Assembly: GCA_951406725.2 (NCBI GenBank)
Contig: OX597814.1
Span: 123,008,001 to 123,072,000, forward strand
Reading direction: 5' to 3'
Length of the DNA stretch: 64,000 nt
From: Octopus vulgaris
Taxonomy: Eukaryota
Shown here: in pieces, positions 2,411 through 56,357 of the stretch
Layout: each line of letters begins with the position of its first letter
Numbering within the stretch: position 1 is the first letter of the stretch
Made by a program: the position numbers and the translations under genes
The notes under the pieces: generated by a model
Told to the model about the DNA's origin: nothing
Database searches by the model: none
The model's input: only the letters and a program-made list of their open reading frames with translations

Positions 2411-3364
2411 TAAAAACACTCTTTTCGATATTTTAAAAATAAATCAAAACATTTTTGATGAATTAATATCAGAGATAAAGCGAAGTATAAAATATGAAAT
2501 ATCACAATCGGGTTATGCACTTGCATGTAAAACTGCAACGCCATGACTCCAGAACAAATGTACAGAAATTTACGTTGAAAGAAAAATATGTAGCTCACGT
2601 CGGTAATGAAATATGGTACATTAAATTGTCTCTGAAGCAACGAAAAAAGTCTATTGTTACTCAATTCAAAAGTCCGTGCTTACAGCATGTGCGTGCAAGG
2701 CAAAAGAAAATCAATTGTGATTACTAACAGAAGAGCAAGTATATGTTTCTATAAATGAGTTTAGTTGTCGAAAATCCAACAGTTTTGTGTAACTATCTTA
2801 GCTTAGTTGAGATAAAATGAAAGAAAGACAAAAATACCGAAAGAGTTAGAAAAGATATATCGGTTAGTTCTTGACGTTGACATGTCGGAGCTTCTCAAGC
2901 AGCTTTGATAAGTTGTCGCTGGACGAGCTGAATCGCCCAATTTCTTGCAATTTCCTTATTTCAACAGCTTTTAACGTGAGAACAGGACCTATCAGAGAAT
3001 TCTATCGTCTCTCGCAGCCCGAGAAAAATCCTTGTCACTTGGCTTAATAGAAGTTATCTGGTTTTCAATTACCATCAATTTTTTACGTCGGAATAATACC
3101 GAAAATTTGGTGTTTGCGTTTAACTGAAGCAATATGCTTTAGTTTAAATTCCTGGTCAGGTTTCTCTTAGTGATTTTTCTGTCAACAAAGATGAAAATCA
3201 TAAAAGGCAGCATTTTTCCAGATTTCTGGAGAATTAGGGCAGAATTTCAAATTCACCACGTCCCTAAACAAAGACAATACTGGTCAAGTCGAAATGTATG
3301 GTAAAACTAAGATATATATATATATATATATATATATAACTTAGGATCCTATCTGAGGTTCATA

Positions 3365-3400
<36 letters not shown>

Positions 3401-3410
3401 TGTATGTATG

Positions 3411-3461
<51 letters not shown>

Positions 3462-3510
3462 GCATGTATTTATATATACATATATATATATTAAGATCCT
3501 ATCTAGGCTC

Positions 3511-3554
<44 letters not shown>

Positions 3555-3792
3555 TAAGGGTAGAAATTGATATTTATCAATTAAGACCAGTGGTCTAGCA
3601 TATTAAAAAAGAATCCGAAGATTAAAATATTTATATATACCAATTAAGGACTGAACACGAAAAGTGGACAGTCAACATGCTAGATATAGACGTCAAATCG
3701 TCATTCACCACAAAAGATTATGTTCTCAGATCAAACTCAACACAAAACCATAGCAATAAACAAGTGAAAAATATACGAAATAAAATAATTAC

Positions 3793-3857
3793 CCATGTAC
3801 TAACTTAGTTTCAGCTGTTATTTTCCGCAAGGAAAACTGCAGCCATCATCAGCATGG
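3793..3857 (-). ncRNA. Type I hammerhead ribozyme (inverted copy)
   Basis: Exact reverse complement of 4636-4700. Confidence 0.8.
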
Positions 3858-4635
3858 TCCGTTATAAATGTAATTTGCTGGACTAGATGCAAACACGATA
3901 CCGAAATATCGCGTGCATGGAGTTCAGCCTATTACATTTGAATATATCTTTCAAATGCCTTTACTTTGGCGCGTTGAAACCCGAGAAAACCAGCCTGCAG
4001 CTAATAATTAGCAGCAGTTAATTTATCGGTTAGAGAACATATTTATTTATATAAAATTAATTAAGGGTAGAAATTGATATTTATCAATTAAGACCAGTGG
4101 TCTAGCATATTAAAAAAGAATCCGAAGATTAAAATATTTATATATACCAATTAAGGACTGAACACGAAAAGTGGACAGTCAACATGCTAGATATAGACGT
4201 CAAATCGTCATTCACCACAAAAGATTATGTTCTCAGATCAAACTCAACACAAAACCATATTTCGGTATCTTTTGTGGTGAATGACGATTTGACGTCTATA
4301 TCTAGCATGTTGACTGTCCACTTTTCGTGTTCAGTCCTTAATTGGTATATATAAATATTTTAATCTTCGGATTCTTTTTTTAATATGCTAGACCACTGGT
4401 CTTAATTGATAAATATCAATTTCTACCCTTAATTAATTTTATATAAATAAATATGTTCTCTAACCGATAAATTAACTGCTGCTAATTATTAGCTGCAGGC
4501 TGGTTTTCTCGGGTTTCAACGCGCCAAAGTAAAGGCATTTGAAAGATATATTCAAATGTAATAGGCTGAACTCCATGCACGCGATATTTCGGTATCGTGT
4601 TTGCATCTAGTCCAGCAAATTACATTTATAACGGA

Positions 4636-4700
4636 CCATGCTGATGATGGCTGCAGTTTTCCTTGCGGAAAATAACAGCTGAAACTAAGTTAGTACATGG
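4636..4700 (+). ncRNA. Type I hammerhead ribozyme
   Basis: CCATG-CTGATGA-T-GGCTG.cag.TTTTCC-ttgc-GGAAAA.taa.CAGCT-GAAA-CTAA-g-TTAG-TA-CATGG: stem I, intact core, stem II, short stem III, GUA site. Confidence 0.8.
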
Positions 4701-4877
4701 GTAATTATTTTATTTCGTATATTTTTCACTTGTTTATTGCTATGGTTTTGTGTTGAGTTTGATCTGAGAACATAATCTTTTGTGGTGAATGACGATTTGA
4801 CGTCTATATCTAGGATGTTGACTGTCCAATTTTCGTGTTCAGTCCTTAATTGGTATATATATATATATATATATATA

Positions 4878-5120
4878 AAGATCCTCTCTGAGGCTCGGCT
4901 CATAGGGCCGACTTCCAGGTTTCCATGGCGTATATATTCCCCACTGGACGGAGACGCCAGTCCGTCTCAGGATTACACATTTTTCCCAGCTATGTAGACT
5001 AGGGCAACAGGAAATGAAGTTTCTTGCTCAAGAGCGCAACGCGTCGCCCTGTCCGGGAATCGAAACCACAATGTTACGATCATCTGCCCAATACCCTCAT
5101 CACTAAGCCAATGCGCCTCC
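4878..5120 (-). mobile_element. SINE family C variant (tRNA-derived head)
   Basis: Minus strand GGAGGCGCATTGGCTTAGTGA..GGTTTCGATTCCCGGAC..CTTGAGCAAG gives A/B-box-like motifs and the conserved central motif. Confidence 0.7.
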
Positions 5121-5906: not shown

Positions 5907-5993
<87 letters not shown>

Positions 5994-5994
<1 letters not shown>

Positions 5995-6663
5995 TAGTTG
6001 GAAACAGATCTTCTGTGGTTGCTTCGGAGCTATTTTTAGCACTAGAGTTATCCACATAGTGGATAACTCTCTAATAATTTATGTATAAATTTGTATTTTC
6101 TCCGTAGTTTTTTGTGCTAAGCCACTTGGTGTTAAATTGATGGTATTATTAAATTAATATCGATTTTTCACCCTCACTTATAATTTTATAAATTTAACTA
6201 TGCGGCAGTCAATATTTGATGCGGCATACGTTTCCAATGGAGTCTAGGCATGCTTTTGGCGCGGAATTTGAGACATAACTAAAAATGTAATTGGTTGGAC
6301 CGCTCGTGTTTTTTGACGCTCGAATCGATCTAATTAATTGGATTTCTGACAAACTCTACCGAAGATTTATGGATGCAAGTGTAAGTAAAACTACATATTG
6401 CATTAGTAATGAAACAATTGTATAGAGTCAATCTATTTTATTCGTTGTATTTCACTTTGCTTCAGTTAAATGTATGTTGATTCTAGTTGGAAACAGATCT
6501 TCTTTGGTTGCTTCGGAGCTATTTTTAGCACTAGAGTTATCCACATAGTGGATAACTCTCTAATAATTTATGTATAAATTTGTATTTTCTCCGTAGTCTT
6601 TGTGCTAAGCCACTTGGTGTTAAATTGATGGTATTATTAAATTAATATCGATTTTTCACCCTC

Positions 6664-6667
<4 letters not shown>
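5994..6667 (+). mobile_element. Second Penelope-like/retrozyme element: 489-bp unit as a ~1.4-mer, inside (TA)n
   Basis: ~185-bp direct repeat at 5994 and 6483; HHR at 6353-6428; 3' end ATATCGATTTTTCACCCT resembles ATATCAATTTCTACCCT of the 507-bp element. Confidence 0.75.
6353..6428 (+). ncRNA. Type I hammerhead ribozyme, CCGAAGA core variant with long stem II
   Basis: ACTCTA-CCGAAGA-T-TTAT.g.GATGCAA-GTGTA-loop-TACAT.a.TTGCATT.a.GTAA-T-GAAA-CAATTG-TA-TAGAGT; 6-bp stem I, palindromic stem III. Confidence 0.75.
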
Positions 6668-6712
<45 letters not shown>

Positions 6713-10569: not shown

Positions 10570-11175
10570 TTGGTTTCAAATTTTGGCATAAGGCCAGCAA
10601 GTTTAAGGGAGAGGTAAATAGATTACACCGACCTCAGTGTTCAACTGGTATTTATTTAATCGACTCCGAAAGTATGAAAGGCAAAGTCAACCTCGGCGAA
10701 ATTTGAACTCAGAACGTAAAGACGGACGAAATGCCGCTAAGTTTTCTGCCCGGCGTGCTACGATTCTTTTCTACTCTAGGCACAAGGCCCGAAATTTTGG
10801 GGGAGAGGGCCAGTCGATTATATCAACCCCAGTACGCAACAGGTACTTAATTTATCGACCCCGAAAGGATGAAAGGCAAAGTCGACCTCGGCGGAATTTG
10901 AACTTAGAACGTAAAGACGGACGAAATGCCGCTAAGTTTTCTGCCCGGCGTGCTACGATTCTTTTCTACTCTAGGCACGAGGCCCGAAATTTTGGGGGAA
11001 AGGGCCAGTCTATTATATAAACCCCAGTACGCAACTAGTACTTAATTTATCGACCCCGAAAGGATGAACGGCAAAGTCGACCTCGGCGGAATTTGAACTC
11101 AGAACGTAAAGACGTACGAAATGCCGCTAAATATTCTGCCAGGCGTGCTGACGATTCTGCCAGCTCGCAGCCTTC
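10570..11175 (-). mobile_element. SINE family B, head-to-tail trimer (period 195 bp)
   Basis: GTTTTCTGCCCGGCGTGCTACGATTC at 10741 and 10936; three copies of GAAAGGATGAAAGGCAAAGTCGACCTCGGCGGAATTTGAAC-like core. Confidence 0.85.
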
Positions 11176-53586: not shown

Positions 53587-56357
53587 GTCTCGCTTTTATC
53601 CTTCGAAACGTTTAGTAGATGAAACTTTAGCGACTGAAGAAGGGGATTTTTCGTTGTGCTTATTGTCCTGTATCTCCTTTTTTTTTGCTTGTCTTGTTCC
53701 TTGGTTTGTGTCTATGTTTTTCGTCTCTCTATGTGTTCGACGTCCTTTTGGTGTCCTGTACACATATATGCGTGTATATGTACATGTAGAGGTAGGTACG
53801 TACATATATGTTTATATATATGCATATATTTTATTAACATATTATACGACTAAACGCACGCACCCTATTAAGTAAGATTGTTCTGTTTATCAAGTTCACC
53901 TTGATATTAACTCTCACGCGACTCTGCATCTTTCTTTCTTTCTTTCTCTCCCATTCCCTTTTTCGTCTTTTTTCCCTCACTTAACTTGTCTCTTCCTCTC
54001 TCTCTCTCCCCCTCACTGTTCTTCATGGTCTCCTCGCACCATTCCCCTTCTTCTCTCTCTTCCTCTTGCTCCTCCTCCCCCATTCCCGTCGTCCATCTGC
54101 GACGTACTTCCGTCGCAACTGCTGTCCCGTCCTTTCTTGCCTGCCTTCTAAGGCCACTGGTCGACATCTTCCTCTCTCGTCGTCCACTATAATCCAGCGT
54201 TTGCAATACTTTTTTCGTCTGGCGTTAACAGCCCTTCTTATCTTGTTCTCCTTGTCCTGTCTCTCACTGTTATATATTTATTTTTCCACTGTTTATATAT
54301 ATATTTTTTACTGTTTATATGTTTGTACTGTCGTTACCGTCTTGTTTTTTTTTTTACCCCTCTGCGACAAGATCTCAGAATTTTAATTGATTTGCTTTTC
54401 GCGGGAAGGAATTTTTCATTCGAAGTATACGTCTCGCTTTTATCCTTCGAAACGTTTAGTAGATGAAACTTTAGCGACTGAAGAAGGGGATTTTTCGTTG
54501 TGCTTATTGTCCTGTATCTCCTTTTTTTTGCTTGTCTTGTTCCTTGGTTTGTGTCTATGTTTTTCGTCTCTCTATGTGTTCGACGTCCTTTTGGTGTCCT
54601 GTACACATATATGCGTGTATATGTACATGTAGAGGTAGGTACGTACATATATGTTTATATATATGCATATATTTTATTAACATATTATACGACTAAACGC
54701 ACGCACCCTATTAAGTAAGATTGTTCTGTTTATCAAGTTCGCCTTGATATTAACTCTCACGCGACTCTGCATCTTTCTTTCTTTCTTTCTCTCCCATTCC
54801 CTTTTTCGTCTTTTTTCCCTCACTTAACTTGTCTCTTCCTCTCTCTCTCCCCCTCACTGTTCTTCATGGTCTCCTCGCACCATTCCCCTTCTTCTCTCTC
54901 TTCCTCTTGCTCCTCCTCCCCCATTCCCGTCGTCCATCTGCGACGTACTTCCGTCGCAACTGCTGTCCCGTCCTTTCTTGCCTGCCTTCTAAGGCCACTG
55001 GTCGACATCTTCCTCTCTCGTCGTCCACTATAATCCAGCGTTTGCAATACTTTTTTCGTCTGGCGTTAACAGCCCTTCTTATCTTGTTCTCCTTGTCCTG
55101 TCTCTCACTGTTATATATTTATTTTTCCACTGTTTATATATATATTTTTTACTGTTTATATGTTTGTACTGTCGTTACCGTCTTGTTTTTTTTACCCCTC
55201 TGCGACAAGATCTCAGAATTTTAATTGATTTGCTTTTCGCGGGATGGAATTTTTCATTCGAAGTATACGTCTCGCTTTTATCCTTCGAAACGTTTAGTAG
55301 ATGAAACTTTAGCGACTGAAGAAGGGGATTTTTCGTTGTGCTTATTGTCCTGTATCTCCTTTTTTTTTTGCTTGTCTTGTTCCTTGGTTTGTGTCTATGT
55401 TTTTCGTCTCTCTATGTGTTCGACGTCCTTTTGGTGTCCTGTACACATATATGCGTGTATATGTACATGTAGAGGTAGGTACGTACATATATGTTTATAT
55501 ATATGCATATATTTTATTAACATATTATACGACTAAACGCACGCACCCTATTAAGTAAGATTGTTCTGTTTATCAAGTTCGCCTTGATATTAACTCTCAC
55601 GCGACTCTGCATCTTTCTTTCTTTCTTTCTCTCCCATTCCCTTTTTCGTCTTTTTTCCCTCACTTAACTTGTCTCTTCCTCTCTCTCTCCCCCTCACTGT
55701 TCTTCATGGTCTCCTCGCACCATTCCCCTTCTTCTCTCTCTTCCTCTTGCTCCTCCTCCCCTATTCCCGTCGTCCATCTGCGACGTACTTCCGTCGCAAC
55801 TGCTGTCCCGTCCTTTCTTGCCTGCCTTCTAAGGCCACTGGTCGACATCTTCCTCTCTCGTCGTCCACTATAATCCAGCGTTTGCAATACTTTTTTCGTC
55901 TGGCGTTAACAGCCCTTCTTATCTTGTTCTCCTTGTCCTGTCTCTCACTGTTATATATTTATTTTTCCACTGTTTATATATATATTTTTTACTGTTTATA
56001 TGTTTGTACTGTCGTTACCGTCTTGTTTTTTTTACCCCTCTGCGACAAGATCTCAGAATTTTAATTGATTTGCTTTTCGCGGGAAGGAATTTTTCATTCG
56101 AAGTATACGTCTCGCTTTTATCCTTCGAAACGTTTAGTAGATGAAACTTTAGCGACTGAAGAAGGGGATTTTTCGTTGTGCTTATTGTCCTGTATCTCCT
56201 TTTTTTTTGCTTGTCTTGTTCCTTGGTTTGTGTCTATGTTTTTCGTCTCTCTATGTGTTCGACGTCCTTTTGGTGTCCTGTACACATATATGCGTGTATA
56301 TGTACATGTAGAGGTAGGTACGTACATATATGTTTATATATATGCATATATTTTATT

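What the first reader, a model, noticed from the sequence alone, without database searches (positions are those of the whole stretch)
3543..4858. 507-bp HHR unit as partial tandem plus a ~590-bp near-perfect inverted copy with a self-templated junction
A minus-strand 1.4-mer and a plus-strand 1.2-mer are joined head to head, with both 3' ends running into (TA)n. The arms differ at about 2 positions, so the event is recent. The 41-bp spacer (4226-4266) ends in ATATTTCGGTATC, a patch also found inside the element (~4584-4596), joined through ATA and ATC microhomologies. Longer-than-unit, permuted copies are expected from reverse transcription around a circular RNA with template jumps. Inverted terminal copies are a known Penelope hallmark. 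Read-through from either strand would give a long hairpin containing a ribozyme.
Basis: partly seen in the sequence, partly recalled or inferred. Interest (0 to 1): 0.75.

Follow-up and report, generated by a model that had tools for sequence, protein, structure and literature searches.

The report
Two-armed retrozyme with Penelope-type ends
This is one copy of a young, protein-free 507-base repeat with a hammerhead ribozyme motif that sits in TA microsatellites as two back-to-back arms ending at two different fixed sites, one each, a pattern that likely records a borrowed Penelope-type enzyme copying one predicted RNA circle from both ends of a DNA break.

Summary
The 507-nt non-coding unit carries a type I hammerhead (8 of 21 pairs show compensatory changes). 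Exact-end searches give 663 and 421 hits in the genome. Of 107 loci mapped, 84 are two-armed and all 84 are head-to-head. In 82, one arm ends at site A and the other at site B, about 93 nt further on; none is A+A or B+B. The 5' ends vary. Both arms share the same haplotype in 45 of 46 loci (shuffles: 34.5 discordant). A sister family (18 of 20) and an autonomous Neptune-like Penelope element (4 of 4 two-armed loci) follow the same rule. Best reading: an animal retrozyme inserted by Penelope-type target-primed reverse transcription from two RNA sites, one per broken DNA end, probably on one circular RNA. Inverted copies, a one-sided tail and two start sites are known for Penelope elements; the strict one-of-each rule was not found in 7 literature searches. 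The 13-nt junction patch may be a deletion stub. Helper, expression and cleavage are untested. The scan found this before in sister families of this genome.

The parts
3514..3546 (.). (TA)n target remnant at the left (B-type) end
3547..4259 (-). Left arm, 1.4 units (unit positions 46-507 then 1-251; position 1 = first base after the predicted ribozyme cut); ends at site B
3547..3639 (-). About 93-nt 'tail' (unit 159-251): present at the end of this arm, absent from the end of the other arm
3793..3857 (-). Type I hammerhead motif, left-arm copy; predicted cut between 3798 and 3797
4257..4269 (+). Head-to-head junction: ATA microhomology, 7 extra bases, ATC microhomology; equals unit 396-408; templated patch or stub of a 181-nt deletion
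4267..4853 (+). Right arm, 1.2 units (unit 80-507 then 1-158); ends at site A
4584..4596 (+). Internal copy of the 13-nt junction patch (mirror at 3897-3909 on the minus strand)
4636..4700 (+). Type I hammerhead motif, right-arm copy: stem I CCAUG/CAUGG, core CUGAUGA...GAAA...UA, palindromic stem III with a 1-nt loop; predicted cut between 4695 and 4696
4854..4876 (.). (TA)n target remnant at the right (A-type) end; its first 8 bases match the TATATATA tract at unit 159-166

Best explanation
This is one insertion of a non-coding, hammerhead-bearing repeat family whose copies lie in (TA)n as two head-to-head arms ending at two fixed sites, and it was likely made by a Penelope-like reverse transcriptase/endonuclease acting in trans, priming both ends of one cut target on two sites of what is likely a single, predicted circular, RNA. 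Shown: unit, hammerhead fold, target, orientation, two fixed 3' ends used one each, variable 5' ends, shared haplotype of the arms, arms of up to 7 units. Inferred steps: (1) tandem copies are transcribed, self-cleave (probably as dimers, since stem III is a palindrome with a loop of 0-2 nt) and circularise; (2) the helper cuts both strands of (TA)n; (3) one 3' end pairs with the UA tract at site A (unit 159-166) and the other with the tract at site B (252-257); (4) both are extended around the RNA for variable distances; (5) the two cDNA 3' ends are joined through microhomology or the unit's own palindromes, with occasional templated patches, and each serves as template for the missing strand. 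Odds: PLE-mobilised retrozyme about 0.85; concerted priming at two sites about 0.7; one circular molecule as template about 0.5.
For: 84 of 84 two-armed loci are head-to-head; 82 are A+B, 0 A+A, 0 B+B, and 2 have one truncated or unassigned end. Independent exact-end pairing on contig C1: 27 of 28 pairs are A+B, and the exception is A+B on inspection (L129). 78 of 84 have >=10 nt of TA at both ends. Arms are concordant at six common markers in 45 of 46 loci, against a shuffled mean of 34.5 discordant, minimum 25. 17 rare variants are fixed in all copies of both arms. Arrays with periods 505, 507 and 508 are mostly homogeneous. In 16 of 82 loci neither arm can be a copy of the other, about 11 clearly so. 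10 of 93 B arms stop at 150-170, where the other end would be primed, against 7 in the flanking 84 nt (p 5e-4). 117 of 189 arms run through the ribozyme cut site. Hammerhead: 99% of cells paired and 8 of 21 pairs compensatory in 11 variants, above all 500 shuffles and all slid controls. The same end rule holds in a homologous 493-nt family (18 of 20) and in an autonomous RT + GIY-YIG element (4 of 4 two-armed loci, tail about 30 nt). Literature: two internal start sites define the PLE tail, both strands are cut and extended, and a dimer is predicted (PMC11167929).
Against: No helper was identified: the PLE families examined share no detectable sequence with the unit, and no PLE ORF was found joined to the unit. 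Some loci carry variants shared by several units of one arm only or by a subset of units (L037, L045, L061, L063, L072, L083, L089, L040). One clean monomer circle does not give these; they need DNA-level duplication, conversion, multimeric templates or two RNAs. Haplotype concordance also follows from fold-back copying, from one dominant source locus or from gene conversion. 55 of 82 loci are compatible with B-first fold-back, and 18 of 82 have the two 5' ends within 5 nt modulo 507 (2.7 expected), often at internal palindromes. Later central deletions could create the 'neither arm contains the other' class. The test for stops at site A was made after seeing the data, and a stronger cluster at 46-70 is unexplained. 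Two loci of an older subfamily have opposite-strand pieces that both reach B: L183 looks B+B, and L180 runs on past B. One sister locus (L235) is ambiguous. In vitro, PMC11167929 saw no difference in start site between the strands. The loci are not a random sample.
Confidence: 0.68

Rival explanations
1. One TPRT event followed by fold-back (self-priming): the first cDNA snaps back at a palindrome and is copied, making the second arm. This is close to the self-priming model of Arkhipova et al. 2013.
For: It explains the haplotype match and the coincident 5' ends at internal palindromes such as 7, 282, 288, 343, 366 and 488. 55 of 82 loci are feasible as B-first and 11 as A-first. The window copy itself is B-first feasible. 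PMC3846280 (passages) infers self-priming from junction palindromes.
Against: It gives no reason why the second arm always ends at the other site, although multi-unit arms offer both kinds: 0 A+A and 0 B+B in 82. 16 loci fit neither order. L040's variant lies in the wrong unit for simple copying.
Confidence: 0.15
2. Dual priming, but on two separate RNA molecules or on a linear multimeric transcript from a tandem source locus, with no circle. A dimeric enzyme imposes one site per subunit, and one source locus dominates at any time.
For: Arm-restricted and unit-restricted variants. The stop rate is mildly raised just inside the cut site (3.6 against 1.9 per 1000 nt). In vitro the uncleaved RNA was the main substrate for PAc (PMC11167929).
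Against: Several haplotypes are young together, yet the arms match in 45 of 46 loci. Homogeneous arrays of new periods, up to 7 units, need a monomer-to-multimer step. B arms pile up at site A.
Confidence: 0.12
3. A DNA element: a foldback or MITE-like transposon or a satellite, whose inverted arms are terminal repeats.
For: Long inverted arms, a TA target, and some DNA-level duplication of units (L037, L089).
Against: The two ends are different sequences, the centre differs at almost every locus, 23 of 107 loci are one-armed and 5'-truncated, and an RNA structure is conserved with covariation.
Confidence: 0.03
4. An assembly or library fold-back artefact.
For: No listed short-read contig from 4 runs bridged this exact junction, and long reads were not available.
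Against: The flanks are not mirrored. The arms end at different sites and differ by 2 substitutions and 1 indel. 83 other two-armed loci have their own junctions. A contig of run X1 carries the same first 10 junction bases on a head-to-head joint.
Confidence: 0.02

Closest known systems
Metazoan non-LTR retrozymes (Cervera and de la Pena 2020, PMC7229834, passages; review PMC7761336, passages; Li, Clavereau and Pollet 2026, bioRxiv 10.64898/2026.07.22.740005, part 1 of 5 plus word search)
   Same: Non-coding tandem unit with one type I hammerhead per unit, low GC (33%), weak stem III, dispersed arrays; a circRNA template and PLE helper are proposed in these papers.
   Different: The unit is 507 nt, against about 170-400 nt (150-450 bp) reported. 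The insertions here are head-to-head double arrays with two fixed ends in (TA)n. The main text of the 2026 preprint has no 'tail', 'palindrom' or 'head-to', and 'inverted' only in a reference. The review says the repeats show no motif pointing to the helper; here the ends do point to a PLE. CircRNA is not shown here.
Endonuclease-containing Penelope-like elements (Craig et al. 2021, PMC8557442, passages; Arkhipova et al. 2013, PMC3846280, passages)
   Same: 5' truncation, partial tandems, an inverted 5'-truncated copy at the 5' end, a tail often at one end only, and (TA)n targeting.
   Different: No ORF (longest ATG frame 44 aa). The tail is about 93 nt rather than 30-40. The papers call the tail optional or 'often' one-sided; here it is one-sided in 82 of 82 assignable two-armed loci.
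PAc (Poseidon of Anolis carolinensis) in vitro (Frangieh et al. 2024, PMC11167929, parts 1-2 of 4 read; supplements not seen)
   Same: Two internal RT start sites downstream of the hammerhead whose spacing is the tail; AT-rich target; both strands cut and extended; dimer predicted.
   Different: PAc starts at AC-rich sites not homologous to the target and showed no strand difference in site use. Here both sites are UA tracts matching the (TA)n target, and each insertion uses one of each.

Membership tests
Metazoan non-LTR retrozyme | Type I hammerhead in each unit | tested here: met
   Core and three stems present; 8 of 21 pairs compensatory in 11 variants. Not matched by Rfam models. Has an extra U after the core and a G-U first pair of stem II.
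Metazoan non-LTR retrozyme | Tandem units, no protein coding, no LTR/PBS/PPT organisation, low GC | tested here: met
   Arrays of up to 7 units; longest ATG frame 44 aa and GC 33%. PBS and PPT were not searched for specifically.
Metazoan non-LTR retrozyme | Unit of about 150-450 bp | tested here: not met
   505-508 nt. This is a reported range rather than a strict criterion.
Metazoan non-LTR retrozyme | Self-cleavage of the RNA | not testable with these tools
   A dimer of the motif folds with the intermolecular stems I and III expected of a double hammerhead (-48.2 kcal/mol); the monomer MFE does not form the core.
Metazoan non-LTR retrozyme | Expressed as linear and circular monomer RNA | not testable with these tools
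   Only contigs were served; indirect support from homogeneous multi-unit arms.
Penelope-like element (autonomous) | RT and GIY-YIG ORF | tested here: not met
   No ORF in the unit; no tblastn match of two PLE proteins in the window.
PLE-mobilised non-autonomous element | Partial tandem plus inverted 5'-truncated copy, one-sided tail, microsatellite target | tested here: met
   same anatomy in an autonomous PLE of this genome.
PLE-mobilised non-autonomous element | Sequence shared with the pLTR of an autonomous partner | tested here: inconclusive
   No similarity to the PLE families in 40 GIY-YIG loci, but only 150 of 6136 GIY-YIG candidates were scored and 40 loci fetched.

The most novel reading that the evidence does not exclude
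Each two-armed insertion is a frozen record of two reverse transcriptases of a PLE dimer rolling on the same circular RNA, one from each broken DNA end at two fixed sites, with the trailing one often halted at the other's priming site. This would be the general origin of the Penelope inverted-plus-tail anatomy. The variants fixed across both arms would then be the sequence of single RNA molecules, possibly including A-to-I edits.
Probability: 0.4. Interest if true: 0.75.

Novelty: new variant of a known kind. Interest (0 to 1): 0.52.

Why it matters
How Penelope-like elements form their inverted-plus-tail insertions is stated as open (PMC8557442), and which enzyme mobilises animal retrozymes rests on co-occurrence and phylogeny (PMC7761336; bioRxiv 2026). 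Hundreds of near-identical copies with a strict one-site-per-end rule give a countable footprint that ties retrozymes to PLE machinery. It favours concerted two-ended priming over self-priming and defines a short RNA (unit about 60-260) and a (TA)n target for a direct in vitro test. The loci are also near-perfect palindromes of 0.2-4 kb scattered through the genome, a potential source of hairpin RNA and of local rearrangement (untested).

Tried and rejected
Rfam found no hammerhead at the gathering threshold over the window or at E<=10 on 4550-4800, where only two chance snoRNA hits appeared. Junction confirmation: only short-read contigs were served and none of the listed pieces bridged this junction in 4 runs; a hole proves nothing. 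Helper search: no blastn similarity of the unit to 40 GIY-YIG loci, and local alignment scores to three PLE 3' regions were within the shuffled range. PLE fragments in the flanks of 5 family loci are separate insertions as far as seen. A cleaved linear 5' end as the usual stop was rejected: 117 of 189 arms cross the cut and none begins exactly at position 1. A-to-I editing record: A>G is 6 of 23 fixed sites against 7 of 80 single-copy changes, p=0.068, with 7 of 68 loci dropped for visibly misaligned stretches; inconclusive. No target-site duplication other than the TA run. My first hammerhead structure string was out of register and was redone. The alignment of the 3' region was not tested for covariation. 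Arm lengths do not correlate within the young set (rho 0.08, n=51).

Full report
Observation. The region holds a minus-strand arm of 728 nt (3532-4259) and a plus-strand arm of 600 nt (4267-4866) of one 507-nt unit, head to head, between two (TA)n runs. The arms differ by two substitutions and one T. Below, unit position 1 is the first base after the predicted ribozyme cut (window 4696). The left arm covers 46-507 plus 1-251 and the right arm 80-507 plus 1-158. The flanks are not mirrored, and no target-site duplication other than the TA run is seen.

Ribozyme. Each arm has one type I hammerhead motif: stem I CCAUG/CAUGG, core CUGAUGA, an extra U, a two-part stem II, GAAA, a palindromic stem III with a 1-nt loop, and UA. 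I chose 11 distinct variants by hand from the 31 motif matches, three of them from older subfamilies. In these, 99.1% of cells pair and 8 of 21 pairs change on both sides, above all 500 shuffles and all slid controls; relatedness inflates such counts. Stem III loops of 0-2 nt recur in the genome, and two copies fold as a double hammerhead, which fits the dimer-dependent type I motifs described in PMC7229834 and PMC7761336 (passages). Rfam does not recognise the motif. Cleavage is untested.

Family. The genome G000 is 2.8 Gb; 'octopus-like' is my recall from its SINEs and comes from no call of mine. A DNA search gave 187 matches at 38 scored candidates of 1725. Exact patterns gave 378 and 504 ribozyme hits, 663 A-type ends and 421 B-type ends, with no hits for the reversed controls; a few A-type hits are internal copies. 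I mapped 107 loci: the window, 37 best hits, 30 further ribozyme-bearing loci from the listed part (contigs C1-C5), and 39 C1 loci, 38 of them because their exact end had no exact partner, which selects against the rule, plus the one apparent A+A pair. 84 are two-armed and all 84 diverge head to head. 82 have one arm ending at site A (after G158, UA tract 159-166) and the other at site B (after T251, UA tract 252-257). None is A+A or B+B, and two have one truncated or unassigned end. 23 loci are one-armed (13 A, 10 B). On C1 alone, 27 of 28 exact-end pairs are A+B, and the exception is A+B when read (L129). The 5' ends lie all round the unit; arms are 31-3602 nt; 54 of 84 joints have no inserted base and mostly 1-6 nt of overlap.

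One template for both arms. At six common markers the two arms agree in 45 of 46 loci; shuffled pairs disagree in 34.5 on average, never fewer than 25. Over all variant sites covered in both arms, common variants are in all copies 50 times against 3 discordant, and 17 rare variants are fixed in all copies of both arms. Arrays with periods 505, 507 and 508 are mostly homogeneous, and 117 of 189 arms read through the cut site. This needs a monomer-to-multimer step, most simply a circle. Against a clean single circle: eight loci carry variants limited to one arm or to some units, so DNA-level duplication, conversion or multimeric templates also act.

Dual priming or fold-back. Fold-back copying of one cDNA is feasible for 55 loci as B-first and 11 as A-first, and for neither order in 16; later central deletions could produce some of the 16. 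The 5' ends coincide modulo 507 more often than chance (18 of 82 within 5 nt, 2.7 expected), often at palindromes of the unit and in 7 of the 32 pairs within 25 nt with different numbers of turns. Both models allow this, since two cDNA ends can anneal only where the unit is self-complementary. Fold-back does not explain the absence of A+A and B+B. Ten of 93 B arms stop at 150-170, at the A tract, against 7 in the flanking 84 nt (p 5e-4, a post hoc test), as expected if the other DNA end occupies that site on the same RNA. A larger cluster of stops at 46-70 is unexplained.

The junction here. The 13-nt patch equals unit 396-408, and short templated patches occur at other joints (L079, L083, L092, L099, L116). 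In run X1 a 53-nt contig carries the left-arm end and the patch and then continues with unit 409-424; the assembly has this joint only once, in the window form. If X1 holds another allele of this locus, which cannot be shown from 53 nt and which I put at about 0.7, the right arm began at 396 and later lost 181 nt between two ATC triplets. No listed contig bridged the window form.

Link to Penelope-like elements. The genome has an active family with a 781-aa ORF (GIY-YIG above cut-off; RVT_1 28.9 bits, just under its 29.6 cut-off) and a CX4CxxC motif before the endonuclease, as described for Neptune and Nematis (PMC8557442). Among 40 GIY-YIG loci examined, the 4 two-armed ones (L149, L162, L164, L173) each have one arm with a tail of about 30 nt and one without, both in (TA)n. 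A homologous 493-nt sister family, with a copy at window 5993-6675, gives 18 of 20 A+B, one truncated and one ambiguous locus (local score 274 against a shuffled maximum of 212). An older subfamily at about 72% has the same layout but includes L183, which looks B+B. No PLE examined shares sequence with the unit, so the helper is unidentified.

Comparison. Partial tandems, an inverted 5' copy, a tail often at one end and microsatellite targets are known for PLEs (PMC8557442; PMC3846280). Two start sites bounding the tail, action on both strands and a predicted dimer were reported in vitro, with no strand difference (PMC11167929). Retrozymes as non-autonomous PLE derivatives are argued in the 2026 preprint. 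Seven searches found no paper giving a strict one-site-per-arm rule, haplotype-matched arms, or head-to-head retrozyme arrays; subscription papers and supplements were not seen. I had formed this reading before the look-ups; the scan's notes report the same pattern in sister families of this genome. Those notes are unchecked and are not used as support.

Verdict. Real, young, and a new variant of the animal retrozymes with PLE-type ends. The anatomy is largely known from PLEs; the value is the strict, countable footprint of a two-ended mechanism. Interest 0.52.

Noticed in passing
window 5993-6675 (+): One-armed 1.4-mer of a homologous sister family (period 489 here, 493 elsewhere) with a type I hammerhead-like motif (CCGAAGA core, about 6355-6430) and a B-type end in (TA)n; 2054 first-look candidates; 18 of 20 fetched loci are A+B.
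   Followed up: partly
L160:1244-6490 and L157-L173 (e.g. G000:C6:133342000-133351000): Active Neptune-like PLE with many intact 781-aa RT/GIY-YIG frames, an overlapping upstream frame of up to 479 aa, a pLTR of about 500 nt, and a minimal hammerhead-like motif with a UUGAUAA core near its 3' end.
   Followed up: partly
L140 and L174, 3' of the ORF: A second PLE family with a minimal hammerhead-like motif (C[C/U]GAAGA core, U opposite U at the base of stem II, as in the older subfamily and the sister family), read by eye; no sequence similarity to the unit otherwise.
   Followed up: partly
L178-L202: Older subfamily, about 72% to the window unit and about 86% among copies, 2434 first-look candidates, with a longer stem II.
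   Followed up: partly
L063 unit position 140; L037; L089: Variants alternate or recur among tandem units (G,G,A,G,A,G,A in L063), suggesting a dimeric template or duplication of unit blocks.
   Followed up: no
unit positions 314 and 340: A>G recurs on several haplotype backgrounds (the window copy has 314G in both arms); a possible editing record, not significant overall.
   Followed up: partly
window 3342-3516 and 4878-4903: The target (TA)n lies in a small array of a roughly 20-nt motif (GATCCT...AGGCTCA) that continues in the same direction on both sides of the insertion.
   Followed up: no
window 10642-11158: 195-nt unit in 2.6 tandem copies, SINE-like by recall.
   Followed up: no
window about 53900-56300: About 840-nt unit in three near-identical tandem copies.
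   Followed up: no
L041 (G000:C40:500-7500): A different locus whose B arm has the same 5' end (46) and length (728) as the window's, with another haplotype and junction; stops cluster at unit 46-70.
   Followed up: partly
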